The notes beneath the pieces were generated by a model that searched no databases, was not told where the DNA came from, and saw only the letters and a program-made list of their open reading frames with translations. Below, in pieces: positions 12,060 through 16,469 of a DNA stretch of 64,000 bases (position 1 is its first letter; the number at the start of each line of letters is the position of its first letter). A program made the position numbers and the translations under genes. The stretch lies in contig CAVUZH010000003.1 of NCBI GenBank assembly GCA_963745835.1, positions 1,184,001 through 1,248,000 on the forward strand, given 5' to 3'. This DNA comes from an uncultured delta proteobacterium. Lineage in GTDB: Bacteria > Desulfobacterota > Binatia > UBA9968.

Positions 12060-13400
12060 TTACCCGCTCACCGCCATATTCGGGGTAAATAGCGTCGGTC
12101 CCGTGACTTCGGATTCGAGCGCTTTCAACGCGGTTTGAACGATCTCGCGCCGCAGCCGCGCATCGAGATCTTGCGGCAGACTCGGATCGCCGCAAGGATG
12201 AGGTATGCTGACGCCTTTAACGATGCGGGTGGCTCGCACCTGCTCGGCCACAGGATACATCGCGCTTACCAGGGCTACGGGAAGTCCCGCCTTCTCGAGT
12301 TCTTTGCTCATCACAGCGCCGCTGCGACTACAAGTCCCTCACGTCGCGACAAAGAGCACGCCCTCGACATTGTCCTTCTTCAGATCGGCGGCAATTTCCT
12401 GGCCGACGCGGCGCATCACCGCGGGGGAGCCCTGATTACCTGGAATAACGTAATAGGCCGGATACAGTTTGCCGGCGCCGATCACCCCTTCCGATTCTAA
12501 CGACCGAAGCGCATCCAGCGGCACGCCATAGTGCGGATTCTTGTTCATGTAGGCGACATTATAGCCGCCGTGAACAGCTTCCCATTTTCCCGGTTCAAGC
12601 TCTTTGAGCTCGGCGATATTGTATTTACGCCAATGGGTGTTGCGGTAGGTTTTGAACCGATCCGGATTGCCCCAGGGGACGACGCCGCTGGTGGTGATGA
12701 CGGCAATGTTGCGGGCTTTTAAATTATCGAGAGGCGGAGCCGGCGCAATATCGTCCCAGGCCTCCATCGGCACTTCAGTAGTGAAGGGCTCGTGATTGAT
12801 TTTTTTCAGCAACATATCGATGGCGCGATCGGCGCCGCTCCGATCAGTCTTTTCCAAACGCCGGATACCGCGGCTAAAGTAACCTTCCTGCAACGCCGGC
12901 CCGATGTTCTCGCCTCGAGCCAGGCGAGAGACTAATTTCGCCAGCGCCTTGAGCGCATCGGTCATGCCGGCGGCGGTCTCTGTTGTCGGTAAACAGAAAA
13001 CCCGAGGATCGGCCAGGTCGCGATAAGTGCCGATGGCGGGATTTTCTTCGTGCATTGCGGTGACGCAGGGAATTTCCAGGGTCGTGGCAACGGCGTGACA
13101 AATCTCGATGCAGCTCATGCCATATCGCCCGGAATTAAACGCCGGACCGGCGACTAGCGCTTGCGCTCCTCGAGAGCGAACCGCTTCGAGGATTGCCTTG
13201 ATGGCTTCCTCACTATGCTCGTGAAAGTAGTTGTCGCCATAATAGATCGTGCATGCGACCTTAGTTTCAGCGCCGAGCTGCGACTGCAGCCCGCGCGCCG
13301 CGCCGGCGGTCTCTTCGATCACGCCGACAGACATGCCCGCCTTCTCTTCGCCTCCAAACCCGGCAAAGAACTGATTAACGACATGGACGATTGTGGTCAT
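12060..13400 (-). CDS. grdB: Glycine/sarcosine/betaine reductase selenoprotein B (446 aa, UxxC)
   Basis: NQFFAGFGGEEKA, GPAFNSGRYG, HGGY. ORFs 12339-13400 and 12060-12314 join in frame through TGA 12341-12339 as VAT-U-GTCSRSGAVMSKELEKAG...IPHPCGDP. The substrate class (GrdB/F/H) is not assignable. Confidence 0.95.
12307..12334 (-). promoter_or_regulatory. Candidate bacterial SECIS hairpin of grdB
   Basis: GTCGCAGC-GGC-GCTGTGAT stem (two G-U pairs) with a G-starting loop 18 nt after the UGA. Confidence 0.65.
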
Positions 13401-13628
13401 CGAGAAATCCTCCTTTGCAGCGATCCGTTAAATAGAAGCACCCTATCATCTTTCGCGTATTCATCGATAGCTCGTGGCCGCGCCGAAAGGCTTGCTCCTT
13501 GGCTCCGGTTTCGGAATCCCCCAGTCCAGTAGTGTCCAAGATGCTCAAAAAGACCTCAGAGGTAAGGCGCGCGAAGTTCGATGAGCTGAGACTTTCTATG
13601 AGCCCTGTCAAGCCCCATCGATTTTATT

Positions 13629-14855
13629 TCACGCTGCCTGGCGCAATTTCTGTCGTGCAATGTTGGCCAAGTGGTGGGTTTCGTCATAAGGTTTATGATC
13701 TCTCCACAGCACAAAAATAATTTTCAACCACTTCGCTCCCAAAGCCCGAAGTGCTTGGGGATGGCTGTGTCCTCTGGCCCGTTGGTCTCGATAAAAGGCC
13801 TTGGCCCACTGGCTGCGGTTTATCGAGATAAAAGCAAACCAGTAGACGGCGTAGCGCAATTGTTTGTTACAAGAAAACCGAAACTCAACAATGCGACTCT
13901 TGCCACTCGATTTGGTCACCGGGACTGCTCCCGCTTCGGCCTGAAGGTGCTTAAAGGATTCCCATCGAGCTGGGGCATCTCCCAGCTCGGCCCAAAGGGC
14001 CGGCAGCAACGTTCCGCTTTTCCCTCCCGGCAGCTTCTCCACAAGCCTAGCGGCCGGTGTAGAGGCGAAAAAACGTTCGACCTTGTCGCTGTACTTCTCA
14101 ATGCTTCGCAGCGAAGCCTCAAGCTGATCGAGCAGCACTTCGAGCAACTGCGCCTTGGCTCTGACGACGTGATCGGGAACCACAAGTTGCGGCTTTTTCA
14201 GCTCCTCCCACCGCTTGGCACTGCGTGCTTTACCAAGATGAGGATGCTGCTGGGCAAATCGGCTCCACTGCTTACGGCTAAGCTTCGAGAGCGCCGTTGG
14301 CGTCGAATACTGCTTGAGAAAGTCTACTGCTATACGAGCCTCCAGATCCCCAAAAACCTCCACCGGTCGAGGATAGTACTCCTTGAGAGTGAACTTGAGC
14401 TGATTGAGCAAACGCGTTTTGTGACGCACCATTCTTTGCTGATCCCGGGTAAGCAGCTTAAGCTCCTGGGCCTGCTCAGAGCTTGGCCGAAGGGGCCTGA
14501 GGTGACCGTGGTCGGTTCGAAGAAAGTCCGACAGTACCCAAGCGTCAAAGGGGTCGCTCTTGGATTGACTCATGCGAAACCGGTCCCGAGCACGATCCAA
14601 GACCTTGGGATTGACCGGATAAACCACTACCCCATGATCCAAAAGAAAATCCACAATGCGCCCGTGCGGCTTCTCGATCGCCGCCCACAGCTCCACCTGC
14701 TCAGCTCTGCTCTGATTGAGCCAATGCGCCAACTCCGCCAGCCCTTCAGGGTTCTCTTGGACTTTCATCTCCATTACCTTTATCCCGTTCTCGTCGCCAC
14801 CGTAGAGCTGGTGTACTCGGTCTGCCCAATCTACTCCCAGATAATATCGTGGCAC
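13629..14855 (-). CDS. IS110 DEDD recombinase/transposase
   Basis: LGVDWA (D), AIEKP (E), KSDPFDA (DD), and the C-terminal domain with AGAVPVTKSSG; AAGGAGG precedes the GTG start. Confidence 0.95.
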   Translation of the reverse strand: MPRYYLGVDWADRVHQLYGGDENGIKVMEMKVQENPEGLAELAHWLNQSRAEQVELWAAIEKPHGRIVDFLLDHGVVVYPVNPKVLDRARDRFRMSQSKSDPFDAWVLSDFLRTDHGHLRPLRPSSEQAQELKLLTRDQQRMVRHKTRLLNQLKFTLKEYYPRPVEVFGDLEARIAVDFLKQYSTPTALSKLSRKQWSRFAQQHPHLGKARSAKRWEELKKPQLVVPDHVVRAKAQLLEVLLDQLEASLRSIEKYSDKVERFFASTPAARLVEKLPGGKSGTLLPALWAELGDAPARWESFKHLQAEAGAVPVTKSSGKSRIVEFRFSCNKQLRYAVYWFAFISINRSQWAKAFYRDQRARGHSHPQALRALGAKWLKIIFVLWRDHKPYDETHHLANIARQKLRQAA

Positions 14856-14894
14856 TTTGTTGTCCTCCTTCTTTGCTTACTTTACTCCAATAGC

Positions 14895-15080
14895 TGTGAA
14901 CGGAACGTTAGCCTTATATCGGTCCTCGACGGGACAACTTTCCATAGAACTTTTGACTCCGTTCTTTTGCTGGTCGGGACAGTCTCAGCTAGATCCTCTA
15001 ACGGAATCGCGTACGTAAGGTCCTCTAACCAGCAAGCTTCTTGGACGACAATGCAATATCTATCATCGAGTATGACTACA
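14895..15080 (-). ncRNA. Putative IS110 bridge RNA in the non-coding left end (boundaries approximate)
   Basis: Two stem-internal-loop-hairpin units whose loops match the target site (15009-15015, 14984-14990) and the donor junction (14937-14943, 14913-14919). Confidence 0.85.
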
Positions 15081-15161
15081 GTAATATAAGGCGTACGCTT
15101 CAGTACGTTGAAGCGCGTCGCCCGAGCGCAACGACGCCTATGAGACTTTTTCAGCAGCTTA

Positions 15162-16469
15162 CTAGTAATCAATGCATACCCATCTCTGCTCGCCCCAAAT
15201 GTCGGCTCCACCGATGATCACATCCCTTGCTTCCAACGACAGAGCGCCGCGGGCGGGACTCGCCGGCACGCCCGGATAGGATAATATTTTGATCTCATCG
15301 TACGGACCGATTACTTTGTCCATCGCCGGCAGCTCGACGGCGCGATCCAAGCTGCCGGTCGTGACCACGCCATCGGCTTCCGGCAAATAGAAAAGCAGCG
15401 GGCTATCGCGGCCTTCCTTGCCGCCATGTTCATAGGTTACCAACACTGTCCTAATTCCATTACGCTCGCACGCCTGCACCGTCAACATGACGTCGACGAA
15501 AGCATTGCCGCCGCCGATCCAGGTGAGCAGCGCTCCGTCGGCGCGAAACATTTTCGCCAGACGCGCAGCATTCTGCGCGCCCACTTCTTTCCCGTGGGCG
15601 GTCTCGAAACGGATGCGCTGCAAAATCACGCCGGCAAAGTTGAGATCTTTTCCATGGGCTTCGTACAGCCGCAGCACCAGCGGATGATTCTGCCAGTCCC
15701 ATGTAGTTGGATAGTATCCGCGGCCTGAACGAGTGGTGTCCACTGTGATCGCGCCGTCAAAGAGCTCATTGGGATGGACGAAGGTCGCCATCGATTGGCG
15801 CAGCGACAGGCCATAGTAGCCAACACCCGAGTGAACATGTTGCGGATCGGTAATACAGCCTTGGACCAGCATCACTCTGGGCAGGCCGGGAGTTTCCACG
15901 CTCAAATCGAAGCTGCGAACCGATTCAGGCGAGAGTTCAGCTGTTACTTGCGCCAGCCGCCGGGCAACTTTGTATTCGGCCAATTGAATCGCGGTATGCG
16001 CGTCCAATTCTCCCAGGCCAGAGGCGAGGCGAAAGCTCACCACCAGATGCGCGTGCGCGCTGAAGCGCGAGATCTCTGCCGCGGCTCCCGTCATATCTAA
16101 AATAGCACTGCGCTGCACGGTGGTGCCGGCGCGGATAGTGCCTTCGTATGCCGCCGCTGCAATCACCGTCATTCCAGAAAGCCGGTGCGTCGTCCCCTCT
16201 CCCACATCCACAACCGGCCCGAGAACGCCAGGAAAGACCTGGCCGTTTCCCGAAACCTTATAACGCGGCTCGACGATATCGCGAATGCCGGTGATCCGGG
16301 TTTTCTCCCCCGGCATGACTACGGCGAGCGAAGCGTTACTTATGCGCGGATCCTGGAGCACGAGACCCACCAATTCCCCTTCGTCCACTTCTAACGTGCC
16401 GTTTCGGTATGCGAAACGCCCTCCCAAGCGTAAATGCTTGACCGGAAATTCGGCGAGCTCTAGTTTCAT
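15162..16469 (-). CDS. Reductase component B non-Sec subunit (GrdE/GrdI-like), paralog 2
   Basis: Colinear with paralog 1: PGEKTRITGIRDIVEPR, HPNELFDGA, QNHP. Confidence 0.88.
   Translation of the reverse strand: MKLELAEFPVKHLRLGGRFAYRNGTLEVDEGELVGLVLQDPRISNASLAVVMPGEKTRITGIRDIVEPRYKVSGNGQVFPGVLGPVVDVGEGTTHRLSGMTVIAAAAYEGTIRAGTTVQRSAILDMTGAAAEISRFSAHAHLVVSFRLASGLGELDAHTAIQLAEYKVARRLAQVTAELSPESVRSFDLSVETPGLPRVMLVQGCITDPQHVHSGVGYYGLSLRQSMATFVHPNELFDGAITVDTTRSGRGYYPTTWDWQNHPLVLRLYEAHGKDLNFAGVILQRIRFETAHGKEVGAQNAARLAKMFRADGALLTWIGGGNAFVDVMLTVQACERNGIRTVLVTYEHGGKEGRDSPLLFYLPEADGVVTTGSLDRAVELPAMDKVIGPYDEIKILSYPGVPASPARGALSLEARDVIIGGADIWGEQRWVCIDY

What the first reader, a model, noticed from the sequence alone, without database searches (positions are those of the whole stretch)
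13589..15090. IS110 with a fully readable bridge RNA: all four guide segments match its target and donor
Seen on the minus strand: reconstituted target CGTACGC-CT-CAGCT; donor junction AGAAAGT-CT-TATAT. The non-coding end has stem TTGCTGGT/ACCAGCAA (15035-15028/14974-14967) enclosing CGTACGC (15015-15009, equals left target 7/7), a small hairpin, and AGCTGAG (14990-14984, reverse complement of CTCAGCT 7/7). A second stem GAACGGA/TCCGTTC (14964-14958/14904-14898) encloses GGAAAGT (14943-14937, left donor 6/7, G-T wobble), hairpin GTCC-N6-GGAC, and ATATAAG (14919-14913, reverse complement of CTTATAT 7/7). Established: this is the bispecific bridge-RNA architecture of IS621-type IS110s. Notable: the CT core appears only in the right guides (7+7 layout), whereas I recall the IS621 left guides including the core. 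Inference: an intact, reprogrammable 408-aa bridge recombinase ortholog.
Basis: partly seen in the sequence, partly recalled or inferred. Interest (0 to 1): 0.8.

Follow-up and report, generated by a model that had tools for sequence, protein, structure and literature searches.

The report
IS110 insertion sequence with bridge RNA
This is an intact 1.5-kb IS110-type jumping gene whose own non-coding RNA carries short guides that match both its insertion site, a repeat found many times in the genome, and its own joined ends. It is a well-supported new member of the known bridge-recombinase class, not a new kind of system.

Summary
Observation confirmed. Window 13589-15090 (minus strand) is a 1502-bp IS110-group element with a CT core at each end. 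It has a 235-nt left end and a 408-aa DEDD/Ser recombinase.

Three copies in this genome sit in the same ~146-bp repeat. The reconstituted target 14-mer occurs 16 more times unoccupied.

In 81 related elements with both flanks there are 47 distinct target-loop types.
- The right target guide matches its own flank at 5/5 non-core bases in 56 and 4/5 in 23.
- The left guide matches at 6-7/7 in 58.
- Permuted pairings reach the observed totals in 0/10,000 trials.

The donor loop, a circle-junction promoter (TTGACA-17-TATATT, 84/87) and handshake-type bases are conserved. Stems are 96.9% paired, with compensatory and G-U changes.

The left guides lack core pairing here, and this varies across the clade.

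RNA expression and activity remain untested: only contigs were available and no circle junction was seen.

Verdict: new member of a known kind, moderate interest.

The parts
13589..15090 (-). Whole IS110-group insertion sequence, 1502 bp counting the CT core at both ends
   Evidence: Three copies have identical ends. Flanks joined in a script align with uninterrupted repeat copies.
15091..15097 (-). Left target (LT) CGTACGC in the flanking repeat
13584..13588 (-). Right target (RT) CAGCT in the flanking repeat, directly after the right-hand CT core (13590-13589)
15083..15088 (-). TATATT, the -10 half of the circle-junction promoter (IS positions 3-8). It overlaps the right donor TATAT.
   Evidence: All 88 related left ends begin CTTATATT.
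13606..13611 (-). TTGACA, the -35 half of the circle-junction promoter, exactly 17 nt from the right end
   Evidence: Same hexamer and spacing in 84 of 87 relatives. No promoter-like site on this strand in the integrated state.
14967..15035 (-). Target-binding loop module: outer stem 15035-15028/14974-14967, and an inner stem GGAC 15023-20 / GUCC 14980-77
   Evidence: Folds. Pair counts: helix 1 is 98% paired, with 3 pairs showing changes on both sides.
15009..15015 (-). Left target guide CGUACGC (same sense as LT, so it would pair with the bottom strand). It is followed directly by the hairpin stem, with no CU for the core.
   Evidence: Covariation. Core analysis.
14992..15008 (-). Small hairpin inside the target loop (GAUUC / GGAUC)
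   Evidence: Helix 2 is 88% paired. Its outermost pair forms in only 38 of 75 relatives.
14984..14990 (-). Right target guide AGCUGAG, the reverse complement of CT+CAGCT (7/7)
   Evidence: Own-flank match is 5/5 or 4/5 non-core bases in 79 of 81 relatives.
14981..14983 (-). ACU after the right target guide. Candidate handshake guide, complementary to donor positions 5-7 (AGT).
   Evidence: ACT in 78 of 81 relatives. Concept from PMC11208158. Inference.
14898..14964 (-). Donor-binding loop module: outer stem 14964-14958/14904-14898, and hairpin GUCC-N6-GGAC 14935-14922
   Evidence: Helices 3 and 4 are 99-100% paired.
14937..14943 (-). Left donor guide GGAAAGU against left donor AGAAAGT (13597-13591): 6/7, with the G able to wobble-pair with the bottom-strand T. 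Followed by UG, not CU.
   Evidence: AUAGAAAGU in 77 relatives and AUGGAAAGU in 3 of 80. The next two bases are never CT.
14913..14919 (-). Right donor guide AUAUAAG, the reverse complement of CT+TATAT (7/7)
   Evidence: Invariant in 80 of 80 relatives.
14911..14912 (-). GC after the right donor guide. Candidate handshake guide, complementary to target positions 7-6 (C, G).
   Evidence: GC in 80 of 80 relatives. Target position 7 is C in 78 and T in 3 of 81. Inference.
13591..13597 (-). Left donor (LD) AGAAAGT at the right end of the element
14864..14869 (-). AGGAGG ribosome-binding site, 8 nt before the GTG start codon
13629..14855 (-). Recombinase gene, 408 aa. It has a DEDD RuvC-like domain, a long helical linker and a Tnp domain with Ser317-Gly318.
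13539..13588 (-). Right part of the ~146-bp repeat that was the insertion target (approximate outer limit)
15091..15160 (-). Left part of the same repeat (approximate outer limit). It contains the small palindrome CGTAC-N6-GTACG that overlaps LT.

Best explanation
Window 13589-15090 is an intact copy of an IS110-group insertion sequence that targets DNA through a bridge RNA encoded in its 235-nt left end.

**Inferred cycle, by analogy with IS621**
1. The element excises as a circle.
2. Joining the right end to the left end across the CT core creates the promoter TTGACA-17 nt-TATATT.
3. This promoter transcribes a roughly 190-nt RNA, and probably the recombinase mRNA behind it.
4. The RNA folds into two stem-enclosed internal loops.
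5. The first loop reads the target CGTACGC-CT-CAGCT. The left guide CGUACGC pairs with the bottom strand. The right guide AGCUGAG pairs with the top strand, including the core.
6. The second loop reads the circle junction AGAAAGT-CT-TATAT in the same way.
7. A tetramer of the 408-aa recombinase (D9, E61, D101, D104 plus S317) exchanges strands at the CT cores. This inserts the element into a ~146-bp repeat present about 177 times in this genome.

**Shown here**
- The anatomy and the exact boundaries.
- A multi-copy target.
- Covariation between the target guides and flanking DNA across the clade.
- Conservation of the split promoter.
- Support for the RNA stems.
- Catalytic residues and fold.

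**Inferred**
- Transcription of the RNA.
- Binding of the RNA by the protein.
- The chemistry of strand exchange.
- The handshake pairing.
For: 1. **Anatomy.** All elements are at the stated coordinates.

2. **Copies and target.**
- There are three copies with identical left ends, plus a 90-bp remnant. All lie in the same repeat.
- The target 14-mer occurs 16 times uninterrupted.
- Empty sites modelled by joining the flanks align perfectly with those copies.
- The repeat family has 177 nhmmer hits.

3. **Covariation.** 81 related elements have both flanks, giving 47 distinct target-loop types.
- The right target guide matches its own flank at 5/5 non-core bases in 56 elements and 4/5 in 23.
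- The left guide matches at 7/7 in 26 and 6/7 in 32.
- Among the 47 type representatives, the mean own-flank score is 4.60 of 5 against 1.90 for other flanks (right guide), and 5.83 of 7 against 3.71 (left guide).
- Permuted pairings reached the observed sums in 0 of 10,000 trials for each guide.
- Sister elements with 85-97% identical protein (L034-L036) carry guides changed to AGUACGC / AGCGGAG. They sit in AGTACGC-CT-CCG(C/T)T sites. This is a sub-variant of the same repeat that also occurs 10 times in this genome.

4. **Chance.** All four guide matches occurred together in 0 of 20,000 shuffles.

5. **Promoter.** TTGACA lies exactly 17 nt from the right end in 84 of 87 elements, and CTTATATT begins the left end in 88 of 88. 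No promoter-like site was found on this strand in the integrated state.

6. **RNA structure.** 96.9% of cells are paired, against 20-55% when partners are slid. Eight pairs show changes on both sides. Many changes are UA to UG or GC to GU, which fit only this strand read as RNA. Shuffles reached the observed values in 0 of 500.

7. **Protein.**
- Pfam PF01548 at 7e-31 and PF02371 at 2e-10.
- KSDPFDA aligns to the IS621 D102/D105 motif, and SSG to S241/G242.
- D9, E61, D101, D104, S317 and G318 are invariant in 31 of 31 relatives.
- The top 10 Foldseek hits are ISCro4/IS621 chains at E 5e-9 to 5e-8.

8. **Handshake-type bases.** ACU follows the right target guide in 78 of 81 and is complementary to donor AGT. 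GC follows the right donor guide in 80 of 80, and target position 7 is C or T in 81 of 81. The model is from PMC11208158.

9. **Mobility.** The distribution is patchy: 11 of 31 related genomes, counting this one, have a match.
Against: - **No direct evidence of the RNA.** All runs available were assembled contigs. Contigs from three RNA libraries do cover the left end, but they cannot show strand, start or level, and DNA carry-over is possible.
- **No circle junction.** None was found in the assembly (0 hits) or in the four runs laid.
- **Folding energy is not unusual.** z is -0.68 and -1.46.
- **No Rfam family matches**.
- **The donor loop is invariant in the clade.** Donor recognition therefore rests on complementarity alone. 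The 6/7 left-donor match is not significant by itself (13,905 of 20,000 shuffles).
- **Left-guide matches are looser than right-guide matches.** 17 elements score 5/7 and 6 score 4/7 or less. That score is also the best of three registers.
- **Two elements (L065, L099) have flanks that do not fit their guides**.
- **The left guides of this copy do not pair with the core.** IS621 strongly prefers that pairing (PMC11208160).
- **One of the three copies (contig C16) is frameshifted**.
- **The permutation test does not fully remove shared ancestry between elements.**
Confidence: 0.92

Rival explanations
1. The element is a genuine IS110, but this copy and this clade are fossils. The guide matches record past activity, and the RNA or enzyme no longer works.
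For: - The C16 copy carries a 1-bp deletion that truncates the frame at residue 94.
- No circle junction was found in the assembly or in the runs laid.
- The left guides lack the core pairing that IS621 strongly prefers.
Against: - The window copy and the C14 copy keep full 408-aa frames and differ at only 6 of 1502 bases. All three left ends are identical.
- Catalytic residues are intact.
- Sixteen perfect free targets remain.
- 47 guide types track their own flanks across the clade, which needs continuing selection on guide-target matching.
Confidence: 0.05
2. The guide segments act as DNA rather than RNA. On this reading the structured left-end DNA pairs with the target, as the subterminal guide sequences of IS200/IS605 elements do (IS200/IS605 mechanism recalled, from no call). 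The bridge-RNA reading would then be wrong for this clade.
For: No read-level RNA evidence was obtainable. Complementarity alone cannot tell RNA from single-stranded DNA.
Against: - The -35/-10 promoter split across the ends is conserved in 84 of 87 elements.
- Stem changes are dominated by G-U-compatible substitutions (26, 32 and 27 sequences at three pairs). These would be A-C mismatches on the other strand, and G-T pairs are less well tolerated in DNA hairpins.
- The enzyme's nearest solved relatives are IS621 and ISCro4, both solved with bridge RNA.
- IS110 enzymes are DEDD/Ser recombinases, not HUH enzymes that act on single-stranded DNA.
Confidence: 0.02
3. The conserved left end is mainly a leader that regulates recombinase expression. 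Its resemblance to the target would be a by-product of preferred insertion into one repeat.
For: - The structured region lies directly upstream of the ribosome-binding site and start codon.
- Small RNAs of the IS110 member ISPpu9 were once thought to modulate recombinase expression (statement in PMC11208160).
Against: - A leader would not need one segment in the sense of the left flank and another in the antisense of the right flank.
- A leader would not need these segments to change in step with flanks in 47 variants while the scaffold stays fixed.
- The donor-junction matches are likewise unexplained by a leader role.
Confidence: 0.01

Closest known systems
IS621 (E. coli) bridge recombinase and bridge RNA (PMC11208160; PMC11208158)
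   Same: - Both are IS110-group elements with a CT core.
- The non-coding RNA is in the left end, behind a promoter rebuilt at the circle junction.
- There are two internal loops. The left guide has the sense of the top strand and the right guide is antisense.
- Bases following the right guides are complementary to positions 6-7 of the other substrate.
- The protein has DEDD plus Ser-Gly catalytic residues and the same fold.
   Different: - The protein match is distant: phmmer E 4e-8 and 16-19% identity in Foldseek alignments.
- The protein is 408 aa against 326 aa. The extra length falls between the two long linker helices, at about residues 161-227 in a medium-confidence model.
- The right target guide is 7 nt, against 4 nt in IS621.
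- The left target and left donor guides of this copy do not pair with the core, whereas in IS621 all four pairings include it.
- No Rfam or other RNA model links the two RNAs.
ISCro4 / IS622 (Citrobacter rodentium) (PDB 9t56; bioRxiv 10.1101/2025.05.14.653916, passages)
   Same: It is the best PDB sequence and fold match. It recognises 14 nt in target and donor, in a 7 + CT + 5 layout, as this element does.
   Different: It is 88% identical to IS621 and therefore equally distant from this protein. It comes from an enterobacterial host.
ISPpu9 / ISPpu10 (Pseudomonas putida), IS110 members that insert in repetitive extragenic palindromes (PMC12288879; bioRxiv 10.64898/2026.03.19.712850; search listing and abstract starts only)
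   Same: The target is a multi-copy intergenic repeat, with several insertions at identical positions. Here the left target also overlaps a small palindrome, CGTAC-N6-GTACG.
   Different: The repeat here is ~146 bp with terminal inverted repeats, which is more like a miniature transposon than a short REP. No sequence comparison with the Pseudomonas elements was made.
IS1111-group elements with seekRNA (PMC11187229; search listing and abstract start only)
   Same: Same DEDD recombinase superfamily and RNA-guided target choice.
   Different: According to PMC11208160, IS1111 elements have long right ends that hold the RNA and long subterminal inverted repeats. This element has the RNA in a long left end and a 40-nt right end.

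Membership tests
IS110 family, IS110 group | N-terminal RuvC-like DEDD domain | tested here: met
   - PF01548 at 7.2e-31 over residues 6-162.
- KSDPFDA aligns to the IS621 D102/D105 motif.
- D9, E61, D101 and D104 are invariant in 31/31 relatives.
- The pairwise alignment places E61 two residues off IS621 E60, in a low-confidence stretch.
IS110 family, IS110 group | C-terminal Tnp domain with a catalytic Ser followed by Gly | tested here: met
   PF02371 at 2e-10. S317-G318 align to IS621 S241-G242 and are invariant in 31/31 relatives. The AF2 model is poor in this loop, with pLDDT below 50.
IS110 family, IS110 group | No terminal inverted repeats. A 2-bp core is shared by the element ends and the target, with no longer duplication. 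| tested here: met
   The ends are CTTATAT... and ...AGAAAGTCT. Only CT is repeated. Empty sites contain a single CT.
IS110 family, IS110 group | Long left end holding the non-coding RNA, with a short right end | tested here: met
   The left end is 235 nt and the right end 40 nt. The criterion is from PMC11208160.
IS110 family, IS110 group | Promoter reconstituted across the joined ends of the circle | tested here: met
   Met at sequence level only. TTGACA-17-TATATT is present in 84/87 elements, and there is no such site in the integrated state. Transcription was not shown.
Bridge RNA (IS621 type) | Target-binding loop whose two guides covary with the left and right target | tested here: met
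   81 elements and 47 loop types. 0/10,000 permutations reached the observed match for either guide.
Bridge RNA (IS621 type) | Donor-binding loop whose guides are complementary to, and covary with, the element's joined ends | tested here: inconclusive
   Complementarity is 7/7 for the right guide and 6/7 plus a wobble for the left. The loop and the ends are both invariant across the clade, so covariation cannot be tested.
Bridge RNA (IS621 type) | [quoted passage not shown] | tested here: not met
   - The right guides end in AG in 81/81 and 80/80 elements.
- In this copy the left target guide is followed by GA and the left donor guide by UG.
- Across the clade the left donor guide is never followed by CU (0/80).
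- The left target guide matches 0, 1 or 2 core bases in 8, 20 and 11 of 39 loop types.
Bridge RNA (IS621 type) | Handshake guides that pair with positions 6-7 of the non-cognate DNA | tested here: met
   Met at sequence level. ACU faces donor AGT in 78/81. GC faces target positions 7-6, where position 7 is C in 78 and T in 3 of 81. Function was not tested.
Bridge RNA (IS621 type) | A discrete RNA is expressed and bound by the recombinase | not testable with these tools
   Only assembled contigs of public runs were available.
Rfam RNA families | Match to a curated covariance model | tested here: not met
   No family matched the left end at E <= 1. The only hit was a chance snoRNA match outside the element.

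The most novel reading that the evidence does not exclude
- The left donor guide never pairs with the full core (0 of 80).
- The left target guide sits in any of three registers within a target loop of mostly the same length (10 nt in the members checked). It covers 0, 1 or 2 core bases.
- Elements of all three kinds are found inserted at matching sites.

If real, bottom-strand core recognition and Holliday-junction resolution tolerate an unpaired core here. IS621 does not appear to tolerate this. The clade would then offer a natural series for learning how guide register and core pairing set cleavage position and efficiency.
Probability: 0.35. Interest if true: 0.5.

Novelty: new member of a known kind. 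Interest (0 to 1): 0.4.

Why it matters
Bridge recombinases are a recently described class of RNA-guided DNA recombinases, and only close relatives of IS621 have been studied in depth. This element belongs to a distant clade: 16-19% identity to IS621 in structural alignment and a 408-aa enzyme.

For this clade the genome and public contigs supply an unusually clean natural data set.
- The boundaries are exact.
- The target is multi-copy.
- 47 naturally reprogrammed target loops sit on a fixed scaffold.
- The split promoter is conserved.

That makes it a ready candidate for ortholog testing. It is also a test bed for two design questions: how long the right guide should be, and whether the left guides must pair with the core.

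For the host, the element marks a ~146-bp repeat family as a landing pad. It also sits between two genes of a glycine/sarcosine/betaine-reductase-type operon, where it could affect expression of the downstream selenoprotein gene.

Tried and rejected
**Searches and tests that gave nothing useful**
- Rfam scan of 13300-15400 at E <= 1 gave only a chance snoRNA hit outside the element.
- Single-sequence folding energy is not significant: z -0.68 for 235 nt and -1.46 for 144 nt. I do not use thermodynamic stability as evidence.
- RNAalifold on the 75-sequence left-end alignment paired the first 8 bases (CUUAUAUU) with the right donor guide instead of forming the donor-loop outer stem. That pairing merely restates guide-donor complementarity, and the first bases lie within or upstream of the -10 box. 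I therefore tested my own structure.
- Public runs were all kept as contigs.
  - No 'goes back' joint (circle junction) appeared in any of the 4 runs laid.
  - Joints that skip about 1500 bases have short sides (18-30 nt) and were found at 90% likeness. They are best read as other copies of the repeat, not as excision.
  - One RNA-library contig of a relative (X19, record 29) covers IS positions 23-211. Contig ends are not RNA ends, so I draw no transcript boundary from it.
- The junction 14-mer was not found in the assembly (0 hits).
- Whether the 65-aa helical insert in the linker is special: IS110-family proteins of about 400 aa are common (recalled, not tested), so I make no claim.

**My own errors, and how they were corrected**
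- My first regular expression for the right end failed for most loci. It was corrected.
- My first ungapped comparison of the C16 copy was meaningless because of an indel. It was replaced by an alignment.

**Limits on the literature check**
- No paper in the library holds all three terms 'bridge RNA', 'IS110' and 'Binatia' (0 occurrences of 'Binatia' in every paper listed, and papers holding more terms are listed first).
- Supplements of the papers were not opened. Supplementary tables in Durrant et al. 2024 may hold further orthologues, which could include this clade.
Full report
**1. Observation**

Reading 13400-15300 on the minus strand shows every feature at the coordinates given.
- The left flank ends in CGTACGC (15097-15091).
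- The element begins CT-TATAT (15090 onward) and ends AGAAAGT-CT (13597-13589). The right flank continues CAGCT (13588-13584).
- Inside the 235-nt left end, the stem TTGCTGGT/ACCAGCAA encloses CGTACGC (15015-15009) and AGCTGAG (14990-14984).
- The stem GAACGGA/TCCGTTC encloses GGAAAGT (14943-14937), the hairpin GTCC-N6-GGAC, and ATATAAG (14919-14913).
- The 408-aa frame 13629-14855 follows an AGGAGG site.

In 20,000 dinucleotide-preserving shuffles of the left end, the three exact heptamers appeared in 156, 452 and 360 shuffles. The 6/7 left-donor match appeared in 13,905, so it is not significant alone. All four appeared together in none.

**2. Boundaries and target**

The genome holds three full copies, on contigs C3 (the window), C14 and C16, plus a 90-bp left-end remnant.
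- All lie at the same position of the same repeat.
- The reconstituted 14-mer CGTACGCCTCAGCT occurs 16 times uninterrupted. On random expectation for a 7.3-Mb genome this should be far below one.
- Empty sites modelled by joining the flanks align base for base with those copies. This fixes the ends and the single CT core.
- A profile of the repeat finds 177 hits, 145 of them near full length. They have terminal inverted repeats, and the target lies near the middle.
- The left target overlaps a small palindrome, CGTAC-N6-GTACG.
- The window copy and the C14 copy have intact frames and differ at 6 bases.
- The C16 copy has a 1-bp deletion at IS position 462 that ends the frame at residue 94.
- The left ends of all three copies are identical.

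**3. Protein**

- Pfam gives DEDD_Tnp_IS110 (7e-31) and Transposase_20 (2e-10).
- The only solved relatives by sequence are ISCro4 and IS621 (7e-9 and 4e-8).
- In those alignments KSDPFDA matches the D102/D105 motif and SSG matches S241/G242. PDB chain numbering is offset by two. Residue roles are from PMC11208158.
- D9, E61, D101, D104, S317 and G318 are invariant in 31 of 31 relatives.
- An AlphaFold2 model built on that alignment is of medium quality (pLDDT 70.2). It shows a RuvC-like sheet, two long helices (127-160 and 228-264) with a helical insert between them, and a poorly modelled Ser loop.
- Its ten best Foldseek matches are all ISCro4/IS621 chains (E 5e-9 to 5e-8; TM only 0.24-0.33). 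Nop5 proteins follow. That fits the published IS110-Nop5 link, for which I saw only the abstract start.

**4. Relatives and covariation**

Scans returned 29 loci from genomes and 80 from metagenomes, out of 238 relatives found. The nearest named records are titled Candidatus Binatia and 'Deltaproteobacteria' MAGs, with a few Verrucomicrobiia.

The left and right ends align well.
- CTTATATT starts the left end in 88 of 88.
- TTGACA lies exactly 17 nt before the right end in 84 of 87.
- Only the circle therefore carries TTGACA-17-TATATT. The integrated copy has no promoter-like site on this strand.

Anchoring on the invariant scaffold, 95 elements gave a target loop. 83 of these have both flanks, or 81 without the two extra own-genome copies. 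Results:
- There are 47 distinct target-loop types, with 21 right-guide heptamers and 43 left-guide loops.
- The five non-core bases of the right guide match the element's own right flank at 5/5 in 56 elements, 4/5 in 23 and 1/5 or less in 2 (L065, L099).
- The left guide, scored as the best of three registers, matches at 7/7 in 26, 6/7 in 32, 5/7 in 17, 4/7 in 4 and 2/7 in 2.
- Among the 47 type representatives, own-flank means are 4.60/5 and 5.83/7, against 1.90/5 and 3.71/7 for other elements' flanks.
- 0 of 10,000 permutations reached the observed sums.

A close sister lineage makes the point concretely. L034-L036 have 85-97% protein identity. Their guides are AGUACGC and AGCGGAG, and they sit in AGTACGC-CT-CCG(C/T)T. 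This is a sub-variant of the same repeat that also occurs 10 times in this genome.

The donor loop is almost invariant.
- The right donor guide plus GC is identical in 80 of 80.
- The left donor guide is AUAGAAAGU in 77 and AUGGAAAGU in 3.

Donor recognition therefore rests on complementarity, not covariation.

**5. RNA structure**

- 96.9% of cells pair, against 20-55% when partners are slid.
- Eight pairs carry changes on both sides.
- No shuffle of 500 reaches any of the five measures.
- Many single-side changes are UA to UG or GC to GU (26, 32 and 27 sequences at three pairs). These are neutral only for RNA of this strand.

**6. Comparison with IS621**

Passages of PMC11208160 state the following.
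- IS621 has a nine-base left target guide that includes the core, and a four-base right guide.
- The core is included in all four pairings, and pairing with both core strands is strongly preferred.
- Some orthologues have longer right guides.
- The circle rebuilds a sigma-70 promoter.

PMC11208158 defines handshake guides. These are the bases after the right guides, and they pair with positions 6-7 of the other DNA after strand exchange.

Here the layout is 7 + CT + 5, as described for IS622. The bases after the right guides fit the handshake idea.
- ACU faces donor AGT in 78 of 81.
- GC faces target positions 7-6. Target position 7 is C in 78 and T in 3 of 81.

- The left target guide of this copy runs straight into the hairpin stem (G83-C99 paired).
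- The left donor guide is followed by UG.
- Across the clade the left donor guide is never followed by CU (0 of 80).
- Among 39 loop types with a left match of at least 6/7, the bases after the matched heptamer cover 0, 1 or 2 core bases in 8, 20 and 11 types.
- Consistently, the outermost hairpin pair forms in only 38 of 75 sequences.
- How a target loop of mostly the same length (10 nt in the members I checked by eye; L017 has 11) accommodates three registers is unexplained.

**7. Expression**

Twenty public runs hold part of the stretch, six of them RNA libraries with small shares. Laid at 90% likeness, contigs of all three RNA runs chosen cover the left end.
- X15 has a 1253-nt contig over 13896-15096.
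- X17 has a 245-nt contig over 14876-15115.
- X19 has a 215-nt contig over 14880-15068.

They carry 3-5% differences, so they come from relatives. Contigs show neither strand nor ends, and DNA may be present in such libraries. I count this as no more than compatible with transcription.

**8. Verdict**

This is a correct and unusually complete reading of an IS110-group element with a bridge RNA, in a clade distant from the studied ones.
- It is a new member of a known kind.
- The mechanism is inferred by homology plus strong comparative evidence.
- The untested steps are transcription, RNA binding and catalysis.
- The most novel defensible point is the reduced and variable core pairing of the left guides.

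The element is patchily present in relatives: 11 of 31 genomes counting this one, a tally that includes two unpublished genomes. The host genome also has five other IS110-family loci.

Noticed in passing
window 12060-13400 (-), TGA at 12341-12339: The gene just downstream of the element is a GrdB-type selenoprotein (Pfam GRDB, 6.8e-116). Reading its 'stop' TGA at codon 354 as selenocysteine extends the frame from 353 to 446 residues through a VAT-U-GTC motif.
   Followed up: partly
window 13401-15161: The element sits in the spacer between a Gly_reductase component-B gene (15162-16469) and the GrdB-like gene. It has the same orientation as both, so it may have polar or promoter effects on the selenoprotein gene.
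   Followed up: no
genome-wide; in the window 15091-15160 and 13539-13588: A ~146-bp repeat family with terminal inverted repeats gives 177 nhmmer hits. Of these, 16 have the perfect free target. Another 10 carry the sub-variant AGTACGCCTCCGCT, which matches the guides of sister elements L034-L036.
   Followed up: partly
G000 contig C16:89929-91430: The third copy of the element has a 1-bp deletion at IS position 462, which gives a stop at residue 94, and a 1-bp insertion near the stop codon. It is either a decaying copy or an assembly error.
   Followed up: partly
G000 contig C14:580170-580259 (locus L004): A solo remnant of the first 90 bp of the left end abuts a repeat copy whose left target is TGTACGC. 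It breaks off inside the target-loop hairpin, and unrelated sequence follows. The origin (deletion or aberrant recombination) was not worked out.
   Followed up: no
loci L065 and L099: Two relatives have flanks that do not fit their guides. In L099 the left flank fits 7/7 and the right 1/5. In L065 neither side fits. This may reflect rearrangements between copies.
   Followed up: no
window 13671-15089 (+): A 472-codon open frame runs antisense across almost the whole element. It has no family support and is most likely a mirror frame of the recombinase gene.
   Followed up: no
G000 contigs C13, C22, C19, C5, C15: Five further IS110-family DEDD loci of other lineages are present in the same genome, one of them with an in-frame TAG. 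None lies in the window.
   Followed up: no
model m0e36c86935d3 against the PDB: After the IS621/ISCro4 chains, the next fold matches are Nop5/Nop56-58 proteins of box C/D RNPs (E from 8e-4). This echoes the proposed IS110-Nop5 relationship.
   Followed up: no
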